NCBI GenBank assembly: GCA_041640595.1
Contig: JBEPZY010000009.1
Coordinates: 32,001-96,000 of the forward strand
Length of the DNA stretch: 64,000 bases
Reading direction: 5' to 3'
DNA from: Gemmatales bacterium
GTDB lineage: Bacteria > Planctomycetota > Planctomycetia > Gemmatales > HRBIN36
Position numbers and translations under genes: made by a program. Positions within the stretch are counted from its first letter, which is position 1. Each line of letters opens with the position of its first letter. The notes beneath the pieces were generated by a model. It was not told where the DNA came from and made no database searches. It worked only from the letters and a program-made list of their open reading frames with translations. Below, piece by piece: positions 2,930 through 56,221 of the stretch.

Positions 2930-3795
2930 GCATTGCGCCGCGCGGACCGTGCACAGCGAATAACATCCGGCGAATAACGACTGTTGAATCTGGACGGCGC
3001 GCATCAACTCGCCGTGGTTTGGGAGTCGCGCTTGCGGGGGCGATTCAGCACACAATCACGGCATACCTCGCCTGCAATTAAGAGCGGCGGGCGTCAGCCC
3101 GCCGTGGGTTCCGAAATCGCGCCGGCAACGGCGACCGGTTTTCGCGGGTGAATTACATTTGCACCGCACGTCCGGCTCCCGCACCACGGCTGGCTTACGC
3201 CAGCCGCTCCTGATGCACGACGTCGGTGCACCGAAAAAACCACATTCGCGGTGCACAATCGCTCGTTCTACAAGAGCGGCGGGCATCAACCCGCCGTGCT
3301 TCGGGAATCGCGATTGCGACGGCGAAGGGTTTTTGCGGATGGATTACATTTGCACCGCGCATTCGGCTTCCGCACCACGGCTGGCTTATCCCAGCCGCTC
3401 CTGATGCACGACGCCGGTGCACCGAAAAAACGATATTCGCGGTGCACAATCGCATGTTCCCAGGAGCGGCGGGCATCAACCCGCCGTAGCCGGCGAACCG
3501 AACCCAGTGCCGCGAGAATCACGCACCGTTGGCCGACCGTGCGATCCTGGAACAAAAGCGGTGCACGTTAGCCCACCGTGCGTCGCATTGCGCGGCGCGG
3601 ACAGTGCACGGCGAATAACGTCCGGCGAGTAACGACTGTCGAATCTGGAGCGGCGGGCGTCAACCCGCCGGGCCTTAGGAGTCGCATTTGCTGGTGCGAT
3701 TCGTTACACAATCACGGCATACCTCGCCTGCAATTAAGAGCGGCGCGCATCAACCCACCGTACTTTGGGAGTCGCGCTTGCGGGGGCGATTCCAC
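2930..3795. repeat. Cluster of REP-like palindromes (CCACGGCGGGC-N4-GCCCGCCGCTC family) in mixed orientation
   Basis: About 8 hairpin units near 2995, 3082, 3184, 3273, 3375, 3463, 3648 and 3738. Higher-order duplications (~2930-3080 vs ~3580-3740; ~3150-3300 vs ~3340-3490). Same family recurs at 55.3-56.1 kb. Confidence 0.85.
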
Positions 3796-3797
3796 GG

Positions 3798-3888
3798 CGT
3801 CATCAGACGCAAGGCTGGTCGCAGACACCTAGGGCCGGGAATCTCAGCTCAATGCGATCGGTCGTCATCAGACGGAGCGCTGGTTACA
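3798..3888. repeat. Direct repeat pair around a unique insert, period 65
   Basis: CGTCATCAGACGCAAGGCTGGTCGCA (3798) vs CGTCATCAGACGGAGCGCTGGTTACA (3863), 21/26 identical. Confidence 0.7.
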
Positions 3889-29477: not shown

Positions 29478-30302
29478 ATGCACCTCCAGGAGAAGCCAGT
29501 AAGCCAGGACTGGACAGAAGAGCGAACGGAAGCGCCAGCGAGCTTCTCCATATGGGAGCTATTGCGTTCCATCATCCGATTCAGCTGGGGACGTCCGATC
29601 TGGAGCTGGCAAACCCTGGTGAGCTTGCTGCTGGTCGGGCTGGCCGCAGGTGCCGTGGTTGCCCATCGGGCGATACGCGGAGAGTGGGCCGAGCAGGAAT
29701 TTTTCTCCGAAGTGCTCCTGGGTGGATATGTTGGCTTCTTGTTGCCGGTGTTGTGTCTCAGTTTCGGTACGCAACTGGTGGGTGGTGCCTGGGAGGAAGG
29801 CTGGCTAATCTGGTTGCTGCTCAGGCCGATACCGCGGGGCCTGGTGTATGGGTTATTGCTGGCCGCAGCTGTTCCCTGGACGCTGGCGTTGACGCTCGGT
29901 GGTGCATTGCTTCTCGCAGCCCTGGCCGGGCATGCTACCTTTCGTGCCTGCTTATCCGTTTTGCTTCCGCTGACGATCGGCAGTGTGGCTTATCTGGCGT
30001 TTTTTGTTTGTCTGAGCGTCTGGCTCCGCCGTGCTGCCCTGGTGAGCATCGCTTACGTCTTCGTGGTGGAAAACGTCATCAGCTATCTGCCAGGCTGGAT
30101 CAATCGCGGCAGCATCAGTTTTTACATTCGCTCGCTGCTAATTGCTGACGGGCCAGTTCCGTTTGAAAATGACGCGATTTTGTCGCTGGTGCCCGTAAGT
30201 CCAACCGTAGCCTGGACGGGTCTGCTGATAATAACGTTCGCTTTCACCGTTGCAGGTGGTATGATTTTTTCGCGCCGGGAATACGTCGAAGGCAATCCGT
30301 AG
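29478..30302 (+). CDS. ABC-2 type transporter permease
   Basis: About 6 TM helices; WEEGWLIWLLLRPIPR (ExxxGTxxxLLxRP-like) and C-terminal FSRREY. Confidence 0.75.
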   Translation: MHLQEKPVSQDWTEERTEAPASFSIWELLRSIIRFSWGRPIWSWQTLVSLLLVGLAAGAVVAHRAIRGEWAEQEFFSEVLLGGYVGFLLPVLCLSFGTQLVGGAWEEGWLIWLLLRPIPRGLVYGLLLAAAVPWTLALTLGGALLLAALAGHATFRACLSVLLPLTIGSVAYLAFFVCLSVWLRRAALVSIAYVFVVENVISYLPGWINRGSISFYIRSLLIADGPVPFENDAILSLVPVSPTVAWTGLLIITFAFTVAGGMIFSRREYVEGNP

Positions 30303-30337
30303 CGGCGTGATCGTCGCCAGCCAGCGGCGGAAAACAA

Positions 30338-30785
30338 GTGGTCAGTGGCCAGCAATCAGTGGCCGGTGATCGGTGGTCAGTGGCTGGCAATCAGTGGCCG
30401 GTGATCGGTGACCGGTGGGCAGCAATCAGTGGCCGGTGATCGGTGGCCAGTGGCCGGCAATCAGTGGTCGGTGATCGGTGGCCAGTGGCCGGCAATCAGT
30501 GGCCGGTGATCGGTGGTCAGTGGCCGGCAATCAGTGGTCGGTGCTCAGTGGCCAGTGGCCAGCAATCAGTGACCGGTGATCGGTGGTCAGTGGCCGGCAA
30601 TCAGTGGTCGGTGATCGGTGACCGGTGGGCAGCAATCAGTGGCCGGTGATCGGTGGCCAGTGGCCGGCAATCAGTGGTCGGTGATCGGTGGTCAGTGGCC
30701 GGCAATCAGTGGTCGGTGATCGGTGGTCAGTGGTCAGAGGCCAGCGGTCGGTGGCCGGTGACCAGAGCTCGGTGATCGGTGGCCA
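30338..30785. repeat. Tandem heptamer array (CAGTGGC / CGGTGAT / CGGCAAT / CGGTGGT units)
   Basis: About 60 degenerate 7-mers; reverse-complement units at 30885-30991. Confidence 0.9.
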
Positions 30786-30878
30786 ACTGGGAGCGGTCAG
30801 CCGCGGGTGGACGGTGACCAGCGGTTCGTATCCAGCTTACAAGCGTAACCAATCACGCAGCAAGCGCCCAAGGCCATA

Positions 30879-30991
30879 TTCCCGGCAACTGGCCACTGAC
30901 CACTGATCACCGACCACTACTAGGGGCCACTTGTAACTGCCTGCTAATGACTTTTCCGGCAACTGGCCACTGACCACTGATCACTGACCAC
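30879..30991. repeat. Direct repeat pair (39 nt + 35 nt insert), period 74
   Basis: TTCCCGGCAACTGGCCACTGACCACTGATCACCGACCAC (30879) vs TTTCCGGCAACTGGCCACTGACCACTGATCACTGACCAC (30953), 37/39. Confidence 0.8.
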
Positions 30992-31028
30992 CGAGGGAAG
31001 GGGTCTTGCACAGACGGCGTCGTTCGAT

Positions 31029-32847: not shown

Positions 32848-34392
<1,545 letters not shown>

Positions 34393-34526
34393 TGCCCGCC
34401 GCTTGGCTCCCCTCGGTCAGCAACCACGAAGGCGCGTAGACACCAAAACAAACTCGGTGTCCTTGGGATCGGCAATTTTCCAAGCCGCTAGGAAGAAAGA
34501 CACCGCTATGGTCAGGCCAGCGGTGC

Positions 34527-34997
34527 TTATTGGCGGCGGAACTCGAATTCTTTGTCGGTTTTGGGGATGACCACGACGTGGTACGGCTGGGTGAGTACCT
34601 GGATGGTAATGCTGCCCGGAGGCGGTGACGTTTCTTCTACGAAAACGAGCAGCTTATCAGCCTTCGCATCGTGCCTGATATCCCGAATGCGGATACTGTA
34701 ACCGCCGGTCGGTTTCGTGCCTGCAAACACCGCTACGACCGTCTGCTTTTCAAAATCCACCTCTGGCAAAGCCGGCTTGGGTTCAACATTGCGGTGGATT
34801 TTGGCCCATAAATCCGCCCAGGCTTTGGCGTCGCGGATGATTAGCTGCGCTGGCTTTTCCACTCCGCAATGGCTGCCTCTCCATTCCCGAAGGATGGAAA
34901 TTTTATCCGGCGTCTTTTCCTGGGCGTTCATCGGAGCGCACACCAGAGCTAGCGTAAGCAGTCCCGCCAGAGTCCGACTCACGGTTTGCATCGGCAT
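34527..34997 (-). CDS. Exported PrcB C-terminal-domain protein
   Basis: Signal peptide; PEVDFEKQTVVAVFAGTKPTGGYSIRI and QVLTQPYHVVVIPK. AAGGAG RBS. Confidence 0.85.
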   Translation of the reverse strand: MPMQTVSRTLAGLLTLALVCAPMNAQEKTPDKISILREWRGSHCGVEKPAQLIIRDAKAWADLWAKIHRNVEPKPALPEVDFEKQTVVAVFAGTKPTGGYSIRIRDIRHDAKADKLLVFVEETSPPPGSITIQVLTQPYHVVVIPKTDKEFEFRRQ

Positions 34998-35245: not shown

Positions 35246-36394
35246 TCAGGTGGTTACCACCAGGTTATCGCGGTGGATGGCTTCTTCGTAATGGTCGGGA
35301 CCAACGATTTCCGCAACGCGGTCGCTTCGCAAACCGCAAATCTTACGTAAATCAGCCGCGGCGTAGTTGGTCAATCCCCGGGCAAATTCCCTGCCCTCGG
35401 TATCCACGATGGCCACGACATCGCCTTTGTTGAAATTGCCGACGACGCGAACGATGCCGATGGGGAGAAGACTGCGTCCGCGCTTTTCGACAGCATCGCG
35501 GGCACCCGCATCCACAATGATTTTGCCCCGCGGTTGTGCTGCCCAGGCGATCCAGCGTTGCCGGGCACGCAAGATACCGCCGCGCGGTAAAAACAACGTA
35601 CCGACCGGTTCCCCGGCCAGGATCGCTTGCAAAATGCCGGGTTGCCGACCATTGGCGACAATAACACAACCGCCGGCAAGCGTGACCAGGCGGGCTGCCT
35701 TCAACTTGCTCTTCATCCCACCACTGCCGAGTTCACTGCGACCCTGACTGGCGGTCTGAAGCACACGCTCATCAACATCTTCGACCGTTCGGAGCAGTTG
35801 TGCCCCCGGTTCTGCCGGATCGCGGTCGTAAAGTCCATCTACGACCGTCAACAGCACCAGAAGCGGTGCCGGGATCAGATTGGTCACCAGCGCCGCCAGA
35901 TGATCGTTGTCGCCAAAACGAATTTCCGCCACGCTTACCGTGTCGTTTTCGTTGATTACGGGCACACAGTTAAGCTCGAACAGCGTCAACAGGGTGTTGC
36001 GAACGTTGAGATAGCGGACGCGATGATCAAAATCGCCGGCAGTCAGCAGCAACTGGGCGGCATGGTAGCCATAATGGGCGAAAGCTTCCTCGTAAACAGC
36101 CATCAGTGCGCTTTGACCAACAGCGGCGGCGGCTTGCAGGTAACGCAGGTCCTTCGGTCGCTGCTTCAATCCCAGCCGACCCATGCCTGCTCCGATGGCG
36201 CCAGAACTCACCAGCGCCACTCGCCGGCCTGTTTGCCGAACCTGGTGGATTTGTTCCGCCAGGTGTCGCACGCGCTCAGGATCAAGAATGCCCTGAGCAT
36301 CTGTCAGCACTTGCGTTCCCACCTTGACGACAATCGTCTGTGCCTCGGTCAGGACTTCCTGCCGGACCGGATCAATGGCGAATCGCTGTTCCAT
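35246..36394 (-). CDS. proB: Glutamate 5-kinase with PUA domain
   Basis: IVVKVGT, VSSGAIGAG, PVINENDTV, FGDND, GGMKSKL and PUA domain. Confidence 0.97.
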   Translation of the reverse strand: MEQRFAIDPVRQEVLTEAQTIVVKVGTQVLTDAQGILDPERVRHLAEQIHQVRQTGRRVALVSSGAIGAGMGRLGLKQRPKDLRYLQAAAAVGQSALMAVYEEAFAHYGYHAAQLLLTAGDFDHRVRYLNVRNTLLTLFELNCVPVINENDTVSVAEIRFGDNDHLAALVTNLIPAPLLVLLTVVDGLYDRDPAEPGAQLLRTVEDVDERVLQTASQGRSELGSGGMKSKLKAARLVTLAGGCVIVANGRQPGILQAILAGEPVGTLFLPRGGILRARQRWIAWAAQPRGKIIVDAGARDAVEKRGRSLLPIGIVRVVGNFNKGDVVAIVDTEGREFARGLTNYAAADLRKICGLRSDRVAEIVGPDHYEEAIHRDNLVVTT

Positions 36395-36646: not shown

Positions 36647-36831
36647 GTAACTGTTGCCGGCGGCCATAGATTGTGCGTTCCAGATGCGCACGGCCGTTGG
36701 TCAGTTACAAACCGAGGAGAGTAACTGTAGCCAGCGGCGATCGATTATGGGTTTCAGAACCTGGCACTGTCTATATATGTTCGGCAATTGCGGGTAACTG
36801 TAGCCAGCGGCGATCGATTATGGGTTCCAGA
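36647..36831. CRISPR. CRISPR-like mini-array: 3 x 38 nt repeats, 36 and 35 nt spacers; last repeat overlaps the 3' end of the M81 gene
   Basis: GTAACTGTAGCCAGCGGCGATCGATTATGGGTT(T/C)CAGA at 36721 and 36794 (37/38) plus a degenerate copy at 36647 (32/38). No cas genes nearby. Confidence 0.6.
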
Positions 36832-38287
36832 GCGGGTACATCGGCCGAATGCGGCGATATTGCAGCCGGCGGACATTTACCGTGGTCAGCCCAGGCGTAT
36901 CTACTTCGATGACCGTACCGGCAATGGGCATGTAGGCGGCCTTCCACGCGATCGCGCCTTTGACCACAATGATCCGCAATTGTCGCGGCTCAATTCCCAG
37001 GCAGGTCAATTGACCGAGACTGAATGGCGGATGGCGTTCGGAGGTCAGGACAAGGAGATTGCCGCCGTCCATTTCCAGCAATGCCGTCCAGCCCATGCGA
37101 TGCACTCGCATTCCGCCGTGCCGGGCTTCGCTTTCCTCGTAAGTGCCCGGATGCAATAACCGCACCCGACCGGTAACGGTGACCGGTGAGCCATGCCACG
37201 CATCCGTTTTGCCGCCTACGGTCAGCGTCAGGGTTGCCCCAGTTCCCGCCCGCTGGCATTGCTGCACTGCTTCCGGGTCATACAGGCAGACGAGACTCTC
37301 ACTGGCACCTTGCCTGAGCAATTCCGCCAGCAACACCGTACCATCAGCAGCCGAACCGCCTCCAACATTGTCGCCGAAATCAACGAGGATCACCGGCGTT
37401 CTGGTGGCGCTCAAGGCCTGGCGGACGGCTTCGGTAGCGTCGGGCAATTCCGCCTGCATGGCTGCTCGCTCGTTCCACAGCCGCTCGGATAGCTCCACCA
37501 CCAATCGCCGGGCCAAGTCGCGGTCGGCATCCGTAACCGCCAGAAAACTCGGTCCCATCTGGGGTACATCGGCATAGGGAAAACCGAGCAGGAAACTCAC
37601 CGCCAGCACGCCGGACTGTTGCTCCGCCGAACAAATAGCCTCGAAATAGGCCGCCAGGGGTGGCCGGGAAGTATCCTGTCGCGCCAGGGAAATGATCACC
37701 GGTGGTTTGGCTATCGCGGCTACCGGATGGATTTCCCCGCGCAGTTGGCGTAAAAGTAAACGCGCGGCTCGCCGACCACACTCATACTGATCCACATGCG
37801 GATTGGTGCGATAAGCTACCGCCAGCGGAGACAATTCGGTTATGGATTCCGGCAGGTTACCGTGCAGGTCGAACGTTACTGCCAGCGGAAAGTCCTGCCC
37901 GACCACCCGGCGAATCCGCCGCAACAACTCGGCATCGGCATCCGCGAAACGAGGCGTGACCATCGCCCCGTGCAGAGCCAGCAGCAACGCATCGTAACTG
38001 CCACCCTGCAATTGCCGGCATAAATAGTCCGCCACCTCCTCGAACAAACCATCGTCCACCGCGCCTCCCGGAGTGGCCCAGCCCAGGAACAACGGCTCAG
38101 CCTGGTAACCGCTTTCCTGCAATTCCCGCAAAAATCCCGCGATCTCGTGATGGGAATCGCCCCATTCACGGACCCAATCCGAACCGAAAACCAGCGTTTG
38201 CCGGGCGAACGCCTCCCGATCGGTGAGCCGCGGGTGAAAGGTGTTTGATTCGTGCAGAAAACCAGCCACCGCGATTCGTGCGGCCAT
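36818..38287 (-). CDS. M81 family metallopeptidase (MlrC-like)
   Basis: RIAVAGFLHESNTF, LALHGAM, DLHGN, YRTNPHVD and DNVGGG. Confidence 0.92.
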   Translation of the reverse strand: MAARIAVAGFLHESNTFHPRLTDREAFARQTLVFGSDWVREWGDSHHEIAGFLRELQESGYQAEPLFLGWATPGGAVDDGLFEEVADYLCRQLQGGSYDALLLALHGAMVTPRFADADAELLRRIRRVVGQDFPLAVTFDLHGNLPESITELSPLAVAYRTNPHVDQYECGRRAARLLLRQLRGEIHPVAAIAKPPVIISLARQDTSRPPLAAYFEAICSAEQQSGVLAVSFLLGFPYADVPQMGPSFLAVTDADRDLARRLVVELSERLWNERAAMQAELPDATEAVRQALSATRTPVILVDFGDNVGGGSAADGTVLLAELLRQGASESLVCLYDPEAVQQCQRAGTGATLTLTVGGKTDAWHGSPVTVTGRVRLLHPGTYEESEARHGGMRVHRMGWTALLEMDGGNLLVLTSERHPPFSLGQLTCLGIEPRQLRIIVVKGAIAWKAAYMPIAGTVIEVDTPGLTTVNVRRLQYRRIRPMYPLWNP

Positions 38288-38300
38288 GCTCAGCTCCAGC

Positions 38301-39116
38301 TTACGTCGTGTTCTGGCCCGGTGCGGTGTCGCCAAGCCAGTAAAGCAAGGTTTTCACTTCAAATGGCTTCAAGTCGGGCTTCAGGGAAAGCAGTCGCGCC
38401 ACGATACCGGTAAGATGAGCGGCTGCCCAGCTCGTGGCCAGGGTGTTCGCAAAAGGCCCGTAGTAAGCACGGCTATGGGCCTGGAATTCAGTAAACGTAT
38501 CAGGTGCGTAACGAAATTGCAGCGGGGCGGCGAGTTCTCCTTTACGCACCGACAAAAGCGGCGGGGTATGCATGGCAGGCCAGCTCAAAATCAGCGGATG
38601 ATCGTTATGCGCTGCCGCCACCAGAATCACATCGCGGCTGTAGCAAAATTGAAGCGCCTGCCAGAGGGCATAGCGTCGCGCCGGCGATTGCAAACGTTCC
38701 TCTGCCACGCCCAGGGAAATGTTGATCAGCTTGCACTGCCAGTGCGTCACCGACCAGTGCAATGCCTGAACCAGCTTTTCGACGGTGCAGTTTCCTGTAC
38801 CGCCAAACACATCTGCAGAAAAGAGCTGGACCCGGGGAGCTAGCTGCAAAATGATGTCTGCCACCGTGGTACCGTGAGTGGCGCTGTGCCGGCCGGAATA
38901 GGGCAAAACCTCACCCGCAGGGCCGAAAATGACGCCTTCGATCTTCGGTGGCTCATGGCCCCGCTCCCGGCAACGCCGGGCGATTAATTCGGTATCCACG
39001 CCCGTATCCACCAGGGCCACTTTTACCCCTGAACCATCCGCCGCCGGGTCGCGGAGGAGCCGATCCCGATCCAGCCGTTGGAACAGTTCCTTGAAAAAAT
39101 CGCCTGTGGACGCCAT
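38301..39116 (-). CDS. Short cytoplasmic S8 (subtilisin-like) serine peptidase
   Basis: Catalytic triad motifs VALVDTG, HGTTVA and ATSWAAAH; no signal peptide. Confidence 0.85.
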   Translation of the reverse strand: MASTGDFFKELFQRLDRDRLLRDPAADGSGVKVALVDTGVDTELIARRCRERGHEPPKIEGVIFGPAGEVLPYSGRHSATHGTTVADIILQLAPRVQLFSADVFGGTGNCTVEKLVQALHWSVTHWQCKLINISLGVAEERLQSPARRYALWQALQFCYSRDVILVAAAHNDHPLILSWPAMHTPPLLSVRKGELAAPLQFRYAPDTFTEFQAHSRAYYGPFANTLATSWAAAHLTGIVARLLSLKPDLKPFEVKTLLYWLGDTAPGQNTT

Positions 39117-41692: not shown

Positions 41693-42497
41693 GACCGCTC
41701 CTTATTTCAGGTCGCATTGCCAGAGGCATCGTCTCGAATCTGCCGAAGTGGCATCCCCGGCAATTTGTTCCGCACTCCGCAATTTTACACACCATCCGTG
41801 CACTGCTGGTGTATCCAGACGTTCCTTGCGGACAAACATCGGTGCGTTGAGCTGCCTTTTCAGCAAGGCGTGTCAACGAGCCTTTCGGTCGGCATGCAGC
41901 CCCGGCACTGACACCGTTGCTGCGACAATGCCGGCCAGCTCCCGTCGTGCCTCCGTTACTCCCCTGGACGCGACTCCTCCGAACCGTCCTCAAACCGCAC
42001 GCAGGCATTGCCAAACTTGCTCCGGTGTTTAGAATTGGTTTGCAGAATGGCGACAGGCACCCGGGCTAGGAAAACCAAAAGCTGACGCGGTGCCGCTCCA
42101 CATGGCGAACTTTGCCGCCCAGCTGCCGGGCTATCATCACCGCCTGCGTCCACCGTGTCTAATGCGGGGGATTTGTCAGGCGATAGCCGCCAGCCTGTCC
42201 CTTACAATGGAAATGCAGCACGCAAGCCACACTTAGCCCGGTCAACTTGGCGAGCTTGGCGGCTTTTATGCCTCCCTCGTCTGAGCCTCAAGGCCAGCAG
42301 CGGCGACTTTCCCGGGCAACGGCTGGTGCTGAACGGCTATCGTCAGGCAAGCCGAACGGCTGCTGAAACCGGACGCGCTGGTAGGCGGGAAAAGGCGATT
42401 GGCGATCGCTTCACCGCCTCCATCCCACGCCCTGACCCTCCGGAACGATAAAGAGCTCTGGGTCAAGAGAACCCCTACCCAGCCCCACGGGGACTTG

Positions 42498-43051: not shown

Positions 43052-43423
43052 CTGAGTTATGCCCAGTTTTGACGGGAGCTCCGCTGGACGTCAGGCATGG
43101 GGAGGATAACGGTTACGTCGGACGGCCTGTTTTTCCGGGGGCACTTGGAACACGCAAGCCCCGCCTGTGCTTGCTCAGGTTTTAGCAAAGGTTTAGCACG
43201 CTTTCGGCATAATCGTGAATCTGGCGGCTGTTTGTGCTTCCTCAGGTTCTGGCAAAGGGCCGCCGACCGTTAGGCACATAGTTGGCTGCGGTCGGCTCGC
43301 CTGCACGCGGCAATGATGTTAGCACCCGGTGCGCGAGGCCGGAAAAATAAGAATTTTCGTAAGCTCTTGTCCGGGACTGTTTTTCGAAATCACCCGCCGC
43401 TATCAAAACTGGGGATGAGTCAG
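43052..43423. mobile_element. MITE / non-autonomous IS derivative, copy 2
   Basis: TIRs CTGAGTTATGCCCAGTTTTGA ... TCAAAACTGGGGATGAGTCAG; first ~130 nt clearly homologous to 3928-4060. Confidence 0.8.
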
Positions 43424-48459: not shown

Positions 48460-48691
48460 CAGCAACGCATTGCCATCGGGCTACTCCGTCCAGTTGCGAC
48501 AAAATGCGGCAGGCGGCATGCGACCCCAATACAGCGACGCCTTGCCTTTGGTGCTACAGGGATAAACCACGTGCTGCTGCACTTGTCGGCAGCAATACAG
48601 CGACGCCCTGGTTTTCGTGCTACCCTAGCTGCGGCGAAATACGGGAGGCGGAACTCGAACGCCCACAGCGACGCCTTGGTTTTACTGCTAC
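48460..48691. CRISPR. Degenerate CRISPR-like array: 4 repeats ending GCTAC, periods 73/66/68
   Basis: CAATACAGCGACGCCTTGCCTTTGGTGCTAC (ends 48557), CAATACAGCGACGCCCTGGTTTTCGTGCTAC (48623), CCACAGCGACGCCTTGGTTTTACTGCTAC (48691), degenerate CAGCAACGCATTGCCATCGGGCTAC (48484). Confidence 0.6.
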
Positions 48692-55284: not shown

Positions 55285-56140
55285 TTGGCACGGCGGGCTG
55301 ACGTCCGCCGCTCCTGGTCGTGTGTGGGACTCCGCATTGCGAATCACGCATTTCGCGACGAACGAACGTCGTGCAACCAGGAGCGGCTGGCGTAAGCCAG
55401 CCGTGGTACGCGAACGTAGCCCGTCGGCGAAAGACGGTTGCATGTGCAGGTGCGTTACTTAACCACGGCGGGCTAACACCCGCCGCTCTTGGTTGTCGCT
55501 CCGGTCGTCGTCCAACATAGCGCGGTTGCAACCGCACAGCGCCCGGTTCAGCGAACCACGGCGGGCTGACGCCCGCCGCTCTTGGTCGTGTGTGGGACTC
55601 CGCATTGCGAATCACGCATTTCGCAGCAAACCAACGTCGTGCAACCAGGAGCGGCTGGCGTAAGCCAGCCGTGGTACGCGAACGTACCCCGTCGGCGAAA
55701 GACGGTTGCATGTGCAGGTGGGTTACTTAACCACGGCGGGCTGACACCCGCCGCTCCTGTTCGAATGTGCGTTTGTGCATCGCAAAAATCGTTGTTTCGC
55801 CGGCGGACGTCCGCACACCAATACAAGAGCGGGGGGCGTAAGCCCCCCGTGGCGCCAATGGACACGATTGTAATCCGGAGCCGTATGAGCCATAAACGAT
55901 TCTGGCGCTACGTTAGCCCCGTGGCGCTTATAAACGCGAATGCAACGGCAATCCGCACACACCATCGGCGGTCTGCTGACGAATGGCGCCGGTCTCTGCG
56001 GATGCGGGTTTGTCCACCCACGGCGGGCTAACACCCGCCGCTCTTGGTTGTCGCTCCGGTCGTCGCCGAACAGAACACGACTTCGACCGCACAGCGCCCG
56101 GTTCACCGAATCACGGCAGGCTAACGCCCGCCGCTCTTGG
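55285..56140. repeat. Second cluster of REP-like palindromes with an internal duplication offset by 268 nt
   Basis: About 9 units near 55288, 55381, 55463, 55556, 55649, 55731, 55827, 56018 and 56112; 55288-55490 nearly identical to 55556-55758. Confidence 0.88.
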
Positions 56141-56221
56141 TGGTGATGATCGCCGCTCATGGCGAAATCGTTTCCCGTTGCCAGCGCGGTACTCGCGCTT
56201 GCCTGGGAATATTGGCATCGT

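What the first reader, a model, noticed from the sequence alone, without database searches (positions are those of the whole stretch)
36647..36831. Three-repeat mini-array built from the 3' end of a protein-coding gene
SEEN: the 38-nt repeat contains the last codons and TAA of the M81 peptidase (minus strand ...TGG AAC CCA TAA...). It recurs twice downstream of the gene with 35 and 36 nt unique spacers. The gene-distal copy is the most decayed (32/38 vs 37/38). INFERENCE: two successive integrations at one site; this is the clearest case that the repeat began as ordinary chromosomal sequence. Read-through from the M81 operon would transcribe it.
Basis: partly seen in the sequence, partly recalled or inferred. 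Interest (0 to 1): 0.8.

Follow-up and report, generated by a model that had tools for sequence, protein, structure and literature searches.

The report
Misplaced CRISPR spacers at gene end
The tiny three-repeat array behind this peptidase gene is most likely a scar left when one of the bacterium's own CRISPR spacer-inserting enzymes twice pasted foreign DNA into the end of an ordinary gene, one of nearly three hundred such scars in this wild genome, which together show how new CRISPR-like arrays can start from plain chromosomal DNA.

Summary
Confirmed. The repeat is best read as 37 nt (36647-83, 36721-57, 36794-830) with unique 37- and 36-nt spacers. It holds the M81 stop codon, whose position is conserved in three related species, and occurs nowhere else in the genome. 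It is one of about 282 unrelated repeat-spacer-repeat units. Their periods (65-68, 72-76) copy the genome's two true CRISPR arrays: a 30-nt repeat with type I-B Cas1, and a 37-nt repeat with a Cas2-RT-Cas1 module. The units are mostly intergenic, resemble the canonical repeats in exact register, have empty paralogous sites in 19 cases, and some spacers match a CRISPR-targeted element or 23S rRNA. Best explanation (0.88): two off-target Cas1-Cas2 integrations, far apart in time, probably by the RT-linked module, tolerated because the gene-proximal copy keeps the stop. Thirty units overlap a stop codon this way, so this is not a unique case. The array drifts at neutral rate between strains; no Cas6 handle, spacer target, leader polarity or processed RNA was shown. 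The scan reported this phenomenon before, in other windows of this genome and in other genomes. Known from laboratory work; I found no paper on such a natural load.

The parts
36794..36830 (-). Gene-proximal repeat copy, 37 nt; its first 13 nt on the minus strand are the last codons and TAA of the M81 gene
   Evidence: identical in strains L025 and L026
36758..36793 (-). Younger spacer, 36 nt, unique, source not found
   Evidence: searches negative; 2 of 36 differences in L025
36721..36757 (-). Middle repeat copy, 36 of 37 identical to the proximal copy
   Evidence: 2 of 37 differences in L025
36684..36720 (-). Older spacer, 37 nt, unique, source not found
   Evidence: 2 of 37 differences in L025
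36647..36683 (-). Gene-distal repeat copy, 31 of 37 identical to the proximal copy, stop codon decayed
36818..38335 (-). M81 metallopeptidase / MlrC-family gene whose 3' end supplied the repeat
   Evidence: orthologues 72-84% identical end at the same position
35246..36394 (-). proB-like gene (amino-acid kinase + PUA), co-directional and downstream of the array
   Evidence: same gene order in L027
36744..36773 (-). Sigma-70-like consensus match (10 of 12): the -35 box lies in the younger spacer, the -10 box in the middle repeat, pointing to proB; a weak lead only
   Evidence: 1 found, 0.4 +/- 0.6 expected in shuffles

Best explanation
The array is a scar of off-target CRISPR spacer integration. 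A Cas1-Cas2 integrase of this cell, most likely the stand-alone Cas2-RT-Cas1 module that serves the 37-nt array on contig C1, took the 37 bp around the M81 stop codon for its repeat because the ends resemble it. It joined a 37-bp prespacer at staggered sites 37 bp apart, and repair duplicated the target. Much later it hit the gene-proximal copy again and added a 36-bp spacer. Both events left the gene intact, because the upstream copy always keeps the stop, so they drifted to fixation and now decay like ordinary intergenic DNA. SHOWN: geometry, host origin of the repeat, two integrase modules with matching repeat and spacer sizes, a genome-wide class with in-register motif likeness, empty paralogous sites for other members, neutral-rate drift. 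INFERRED: that Cas1-Cas2 did it, which module did it, the order of events, and that the array has no function.
For: (1) 380 of 497 unique-sequence spaced repeats fall at periods 65-68 (178) or 72-76 (202); periods 45-63 hold 23 in all; shuffles give 0-1. The canonical arrays have the same period spreads. (2) Exactly two cas1 and two cas2 matches exist, one pair beside each array: type I-B cas1/cas2/cas4 plus III-B cmr on C8, and cas2, RT, cas1 on C1. (3) With boundaries set by the duplication alone, 93 units per class match the canonical repeat better than shuffles, and only in register (9.76 vs 8.41 +/- 0.23 of 30; 11.71 vs 10.74 +/- 0.23 of 37). (4) An orientation-free block test gives two different signatures. 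The 30-nt class (n=117) is enriched at positions 1-3, 11-15 (z 8.9), 18-22 (z 7.3), 23-30 and the last two leader bases. Positions 11-15 and 18-22 are the anchor motifs that type I-B integration needs in Haloarcula (PMC4872114, abstract and discussion read). The 37-nt class (n=128) is enriched at its ends (30-37, z 8.5) and not in the middle, and the M81 repeat matches 5 of the first 8 and 4 of the last 8 bases. (5) 19 of 282 units have a paralogous site with a single copy and no insert; I discount 3 of the 19. (6) 256 of 307 scored pairs are intergenic against 19% of random sites; 30 units overlap a stop in the gene-proximal copy against 5 overlapping a start. (7) Off-array spacers match contig C15, which 35 canonical I-B spacers also target, and 23S rRNA and single chromosomal sites. 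One off-array spacer matches a canonical spacer at 31 of 36 on the opposite strand. (8) Congener G001, where only the RT-linked Cas1 was found, shows 8 units at periods 73-76 and none at 65-69 in 214 kb. (9) Array divergence to strain L025 is 6 of 184, against 7 of 252 in the rest of the gap, 19 of 725 at third codon positions and 11 of 1450 at first and second positions.
Against: No empty allele of this site was found: L025 and L026 carry the full array, no joint skipping it was among those shown for four runs (6 further joints were not shown), and the syntenic gap of L027 is shorter (318 vs 423 nt) but does not align. Neither spacer has a source. Likeness of this repeat to the canonical one is weak on its own: 5.4% of random 37-mers reach 14 matches, and the orientation posterior is only 0.76. 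With 30 nt anchored at the 3' end, each class matches both canonical repeats about equally because they share the tail, so module assignment rests on length and block pattern. Only 2 of 5 traceable 30-class spacers show the CCN motif seen for 28 of 36 canonical matches on C15. G001 is 87% complete, so a missing I-B Cas1 is not excluded. No integration was tested biochemically.
Confidence: 0.88

Rival explanations
1. Same origin, but the array has been put to use: read-through RNA from the M81 operon is cut into guide or regulatory RNAs, or the spacer-repeat junction now acts as a promoter for proB.
For: Fixed in three assemblies; co-directional with M81 and proB; a 10-of-12 sigma-70-like match is formed across the younger spacer and middle repeat and its two boxes are unchanged in L025.
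Against: Divergence equals the neutral rate. The last 8 bases match the canonical handle at only 4 of 8 and the canonical hairpin is absent; the array folds no better than shuffles (z -0.84). Best genomic matches of the spacers (24-25 bases) equal those of shuffled spacers. No Rfam family above threshold. The promoter match has 0.4 expected by chance.
Confidence: 0.08
2. A non-CRISPR process (replication slippage, recombination repair, or an unknown small mobile element with a long target duplication) made the units, and the size match to the arrays is coincidence.
For: Units cluster in low-coding regions rich in REP-like palindromes. A few catalogue entries are plain tandem duplications or coding repeats, and 33 of 282 units are paralogous copies or internally amplified.
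Against: Two sharp period peaks match two different arrays. Inserts are unique, show no conserved end bases and some come from a CRISPR-targeted element. In-register anchor and leader motifs are not predicted by slippage. Transposon and casposon target duplications are 4-15 bp (PMC4872114 discussion).
Confidence: 0.03
3. The array is the decayed remnant of an old canonical or mobile CRISPR array that happened to overlap the gene end.
For: Repeat and spacer lengths are CRISPR-like; a separate small array with another 30-nt repeat exists on contig C20.
Against: The repeat begins in coding sequence whose stop position is ancestral; it occurs nowhere else; its copies are 84-97% alike to each other but only 35-38% alike to the canonical repeat; hundreds of other units each have their own repeat.
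Confidence: 0.01

Closest known systems
Non-canonical (off-target) spacer integration giving 'neo-CRISPR' loci in E. coli type I-E (Nivala, Shipman and Church 2018, Nat Microbiol 3:310; PMC5832444 not held, so seen only through passages of citing papers PMC7054753, PMC11788318, PMC6698737 and bioRxiv 10.1101/148544)
   Same: Spacer-sized DNA inserted outside the array; new array-like loci arise from chromosomal sequence.
   Different: There it needed overproduced Cas1-Cas2 and was rare; bioRxiv 10.1101/148544 calls natural frequency unclear, with circumstantial evidence in two other species. Here about 280 events are fixed in a wild lineage, come from two integrases (one RT-linked), and some sites were hit two or more times.
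In vitro non-CRISPR integration by Pyrococcus furiosus Cas1-Cas2 (PMC6698737, abstract and passages read)
   Same: Full-site integration at repeat-length spacing into sites only partly like the repeat (43% there, 38% for the M81 site), with likeness at the borders.
   Different: Plasmid substrates in vitro; 30-bp repeat; no fixation in a genome.
Type I-B repeat anchor motifs of Haloarcula hispanica (PMC4872114, abstract and discussion read)
   Same: The genome's 30-nt class is enriched at the same positions (11-15, 18-22, leader junction).
   Different: Applies to the sister 30-nt class; the M81 array belongs to the 37-nt class, which is enriched at the ends instead.
RT-Cas1-Cas2 integrases (Thiomicrospira Cas6-RT-Cas1, bioRxiv 10.1101/2020.10.18.344481, passages read) and HU-dependent fidelity in Thermotoga type III-A (PMC13769266, abstract read)
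   Same: Type III-linked integrases attempt many off-target sites; RT lies beside Cas1 here.
   Different: RT and Cas1 are separate ORFs here; in vitro full-site events there were mostly on target (12 of 14). This genome has two HU/IHF-family genes like its congeners, so loss of that factor does not explain the load.
CreTA and related ectopic-repeat regulatory RNAs (PMC9458426, abstract and passages read)
   Same: One or two spacer-like segments between non-canonical repeats outside the array.
   Different: Those repeats descend from the CRISPR repeat, keep the Cas5 handle and lie at cas loci; this one descends from a gene end, lacks the handle and lies on another contig.

Membership tests
Canonical CRISPR array | Direct repeats separated by unique spacers of near-constant length | tested here: met
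   3 x 37 nt, spacers 37 and 36 nt
Canonical CRISPR array | Repeat is the cognate repeat of a cas system in the genome | tested here: not met
   14 of 37 matches to the 37-nt canonical repeat; found only at this locus
Canonical CRISPR array | cas genes or a leader adjacent | tested here: not met
   Flanks are the M81 and proB genes; cas1 and cas2 lie on contigs C1 and C8
Canonical CRISPR array | 8-nt 3' handle and hairpin for Cas6 processing | tested here: not met
   4 of 8 handle bases; canonical stem absent; array fold z -0.84
Canonical CRISPR array | Growth polarised at the leader end | tested here: inconclusive
   Fits at this locus (posterior 0.76), but across multi-copy units 17 of 34, 18 of 31 and 15 of 30
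Canonical CRISPR array | Processed crRNAs and interference | not testable with these tools
   Only contig-level RNA data
Off-target Cas1-Cas2 integration (neo-CRISPR) | Repeat-length duplication of pre-existing host sequence | tested here: met
   Repeat includes an ancestral stop codon; length equals the canonical 37 nt
Off-target Cas1-Cas2 integration (neo-CRISPR) | Insert of the integrase's spacer length | tested here: met
   36 and 37 nt are the modes of the canonical 37-nt array
Off-target Cas1-Cas2 integration (neo-CRISPR) | Target partly resembles the canonical repeat in register | tested here: met
   Strong for the class; weak for this site alone (top 5.4% of random 37-mers)
Off-target Cas1-Cas2 integration (neo-CRISPR) | Matching integrase encoded in the genome | tested here: met
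   cas2, RT and cas1 directly upstream of the 37-nt array
Off-target Cas1-Cas2 integration (neo-CRISPR) | Empty pre-integration allele | tested here: inconclusive
   Found for 19 of 282 units as paralogues; not found for this site
Off-target Cas1-Cas2 integration (neo-CRISPR) | Spacer traced to a protospacer | tested here: inconclusive
   About 9 other units traced; none for these two spacers
Off-target Cas1-Cas2 integration (neo-CRISPR) | Cas1-dependence shown by experiment | not testable with these tools
   Needs biochemistry or genetics
CreTA / regulatory ectopic repeats | Degenerate descendant of the CRISPR repeat that keeps the handle, next to a cas locus | tested here: not met
CreTA / regulatory ectopic repeats | Spacer partly complementary to a host promoter | tested here: not met
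   Best genomic matches equal those of shuffled spacers
Transposon, casposon or MITE footprint | Shared insert termini and a short (4-15 bp) target duplication | tested here: not met
   Inserts unique, end bases near background; duplication 37 bp

The most novel reading that the evidence does not exclude
This lineage is a natural array nursery. Two integrases, one RT-linked, have seeded hundreds of host-derived proto-arrays; preferred sites are hit again and grow (at least 32 units with three or more copies, where about 0.1 re-hits would be expected if non-coding sites were chosen uniformly). Those placed at gene ends, like this one, are transcribed for free by read-through, so some may already yield guide or antisense RNAs, or new promoters, and are real intermediates in the birth of new CRISPR arrays and repeat types.
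Probability: 0.12. Interest if true: 0.85.

Novelty: new variant of a known kind. Interest (0 to 1): 0.62.

Why it matters
How new CRISPR arrays and repeats arise, and how much damage Cas1-Cas2 does to its own chromosome, are open questions studied mostly with overexpression or in vitro. Here a wild genome keeps about 280 datable events from two integrases. The set recovers, without any experiment, the anchor motifs known for type I-B integration, and gives a first target profile for an RT-linked Cas1 module (ends matter, middle does not). It also shows the filter of selection: coding hits are purged, gene ends are tolerated. This locus is a clean teaching case of a repeat born from a stop codon and hit twice, but by itself it looks like a neutral scar.

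Tried and rejected
Leader-side polarity across multi-copy units: no signal (17 of 34 and 18 of 31; 15 of 30; all thresholds p > 0.4), though orientation calls are weak. Orientation against transcription: none (37-nt class 29 of 58 in co-directional gaps; 12 of 17 for stop-overlapping units, p 0.14). Free EM motif search gave only weak motifs; the PWMs were seeded with the canonical repeat and are circular, so I do not count them as evidence. One search used the 37-nt repeat off by one base; one search repeats it correctly. Spacer sources: blastn of the array against 50,697 phage records gave one chance 25-nt hit; an exact 20-nt primer from the younger spacer found 0 matches in viral contigs and 0 in species genomes; the older spacer was not searched in those two collections; both were scanned against the own genome at chance level. 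Relatives of contig C15 were not found with one protein query, and 0 of 9 of its proteins hit PHROGs. Loss of HU/IHF as the cause: rejected, two genes as in congeners. Rfam: nothing above threshold. RNA run X16: flat contig depth, no information on transcription or processing. Literature: six searches found laboratory and in vitro work but no report of a natural genome-wide load; subscription papers are mostly not held and Nivala 2018 could not be read. No supplements were read. Gene calls are my own hexamer-scored ORFs (3032 genes), not a curated annotation. Rows dropped before counts: 2 rows inside canonical arrays (309 to 307); 33 of 282 units flagged as paralogous or internally amplified for the non-paralogue tests; four overlapping or amplified C2 entries.

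Full report
OBSERVATION. The three copies and two unique spacers are as described. The M81/MlrC gene ends on the minus strand at 36818, inside the proximal copy. The unit is better read as a 37-nt repeat (36647-83, 36721-57, 36794-830) with 37- and 36-nt spacers. In that register it starts and ends with the same two bases as the genome's 37-nt CRISPR repeat and scores 14 of 37, against 10 and 11 one base to either side. The stop is ancestral: orthologues in L027, G002 and G001 end at the same P-L-x-x-x-stop. The repeat occurs nowhere else in the 4.45-Mb assembly (next best 25 of 37). Strains L025 and L026 carry the same array; the syntenic gap of species L027 has no repeat and is 318 nt against 423, but is too diverged to align as an empty site.

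IT IS ONE OF MANY. The window is G000:C9:32001-96000. A scan for spaced direct repeats found 497 pairs with unique, non-simple sequence; 178 have periods 65-68 and 202 have periods 72-76, while the 19 periods from 45 to 63 hold 23 in all, and three shuffles gave 0, 1 and 1. Repeat lengths centre on 30 and 37 nt respectively. After chaining there are 282 distinct units, 249 of them not paralogous or internally amplified; 36 of the 249 entries have three or more copies, four of which overlap or are amplified entries on C2. The window alone holds ten. The genome has two large canonical arrays with exactly these dimensions: a 30-nt repeat with periods mostly 65-68 (316 + 24 copies on C8 and C10) and a 37-nt repeat with periods mostly 72-76 (246 copies on C1). 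It has two cas1 and two cas2 matches, one pair beside each: type I-B cas1, cas2, cas4, cas3, cas5, cas7 with III-B cmr genes on C8, and cas2, a reverse transcriptase and cas1 on C1. Spacers of the C1 array overlap each other on the same strand in 71 pairs and on opposite strands in 3 (10 and 5 for the I-B array), as expected if the RT module often captures RNA (inference).

EVIDENCE FOR CAS1-CAS2. With boundaries fixed by the duplication alone, 93 units per class match their canonical repeat better than shuffles and only at shift 0. An orientation-free block test shows the 30-nt class enriched at positions 1-3 (z 5.2), 11-15 (8.9), 18-22 (7.3), 23-30 (6.8) and the last two leader bases (1.70 vs 1.12 +/- 0.08), and not at 4-10 or 16-17. 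Positions 11-15 and 18-22 are the anchors that type I-B integration needs in Haloarcula (PMC4872114, abstract and discussion read); partial symmetry of the repeat means those two blocks are not independent. The 37-nt class is enriched at 1-3, 4-10 and 30-37 (z 3.6, 3.2, 8.5) and not at 18-29. Two signatures point to two enzymes, and the M81 repeat has the end-weighted pattern. Nineteen of 282 units have a paralogous site with one copy and no insert; two are plain tandem duplications and one matches poorly, which leaves 16. Canonical I-B spacers hit contig C15 in 36 rows (35 spacers), 28 with CCN upstream; off-array spacers hit C15 (32 of 37 with CCG; a paralogous pair at 31 and 30 of 36), single chromosomal sites (34 of 36 with CCG; 36 of 37), and 23S rRNA (35 of 36; 31 of 36). 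In congeners the same units occur at lower density: G001 has 8 at periods 73-76 and none at 65-69 in 214 kb (one may be a decayed canonical repeat), G003 5 in the two bands in 168 kb, G002 3 in 311 kb, G004 none in 120 kb, against about 87 per Mb here. G001 and G002 showed only the RT-linked Cas1, G003 both, but they are 78-93% complete and filters differed slightly between scans.

WHY A GENE END. 256 of 307 scored pairs are intergenic where 19% is expected. Thirty units hold a stop codon in the gene-proximal copy and five overlap a start. A target duplication across a stop leaves the gene whole, so such events survive selection; this is the simplest reason for the M81 case. One other example, C7:236291, is still 37 of 37 identical.

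HISTORY AT THIS SITE. Neighbouring copies match at 30 and 36 of 37, and the middle copy shares the proximal copy's state at all six sites where the distal one differs. So the first event is old (about 16% divergence, the modal age of the class) and the second recent but older than the split from L025. The second event took the gene-side copy, which is the leader side if the minus-strand orientation is right (posterior 0.76), but leader polarity is not a rule across units. A second hit in exact register shows site preference: with about 290 events over about 1 Mb of non-coding DNA, uniform choice predicts about 0.1 re-hits (my arithmetic). Other sites still vary among strains: runs X3 and X10 show an extra 75-nt unit at 30952-30993, three of four runs show a 36-nt insert with a duplication of at least 21 nt at 41943-41963, and L025 has its own three-copy unit after thiC. 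These are suggestive only.

FUNCTION. None shown. Divergence to L025 is 6 of 184 in the array, 7 of 252 in the rest of the gap, 19 of 725 at third codon positions and 11 of 1450 at constrained positions; L026 is identical here and uninformative. The handle and hairpin are absent, the spacers have no target above chance and no source. A sigma-70-like match spans the younger spacer and middle repeat towards proB, at a chance level of 0.4. RNA data could not test read-through.

WHAT IS KNOWN. Off-target integration is known from E. coli overproducing Cas1-Cas2 (Nivala 2018, seen only through citing passages), from Pyrococcus in vitro at a site 43% like the repeat, and from RT-Cas1 and Thermotoga systems in vitro. 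Six searches found no report of a natural genome-wide load, within a library that lacks most subscription papers. It works like a neo-CRISPR; it is not a member of canonical arrays or of CreTA-type repeats. I reached this reading before consulting the scan's notes; those notes report the same phenomenon in other windows of this genome and in other genomes. The label 'planctomycete' comes from those notes and was not tested here; holders of the sequence are mostly hot-spring and mat metagenomes.

VERDICT. Real; a twice-hit off-target Cas1-Cas2 scar built from a stop codon (0.88), most likely neutral; a new natural variant of a known laboratory phenomenon; interest 0.62, carried by the genome-wide record rather than by this locus alone.

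Noticed in passing
window 4230, 10804, 18241, 30882, 31046, 43166, 43708, 48527, 55141: Nine further repeat-spacer-repeat units of the same two size classes in this window; 48527-48691 has three copies, and 43163-43259 has single-copy empty paralogues elsewhere.
   Followed up: partly
window 41943-41963: Three of four public runs carry a 36-nt insert with a duplication of at least 21 nt that the window lacks, so the window may hold the empty allele.
   Followed up: partly
window 30952-30993: Runs X3 and X10 show one extra 75-nt unit at this array; it lies beside a simple tandem repeat, so caution.
   Followed up: partly
window 34364-34533 versus L025:3310-3976: Strain L025 has a different segment about 500 nt longer after thiC, with REP-like palindromes and its own three-copy unit (periods 73, 74).
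   Followed up: partly
window 30232-30861: Long tandem repeat of 35-nt period built of 7-nt units; much shorter in L025.
   Followed up: no
window 2987-3800 and 55289-56145: Clusters of a REP-like palindrome; genome-wide its density tracks low coding density and the density of the spacer scars, dividing the genome into rich and poor regions.
   Followed up: partly
G000:C15 (L024): A 9.6-kb contig targeted by 35 canonical I-B spacers, mostly leader-proximal; weak family-B polymerase hit and a matrixin domain, no PHROG match, no relative found; probably an undescribed small virus or plasmid.
   Followed up: partly
G000:C7:236291-236401: A perfect 37-of-37 off-array unit that ends in the full canonical 8-nt handle and also overlaps the stop codon of a gene without Pfam match; the best candidate for a processable, young neo-array.
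   Followed up: partly
G000:C1:356211-377935: Stand-alone cas2, RT, cas1 module with a 246-repeat array whose spacers overlap strongly on one strand; conserved in three congeners.
   Followed up: partly
G000:C2:174386 and C8:12341: An off-array spacer and a canonical I-B spacer cover the same sequence on opposite strands (31 of 36), so both came from one invader.
   Followed up: partly
G000:C10:64660-65230 and C20:1210-1581: A transposase-like segment (label from my reading, not scanned) abuts the distal end of the I-B array and itself carries a scar; a small contig holds a short array with a third, AT-rich 30-nt repeat, possibly from another organism.
   Followed up: no
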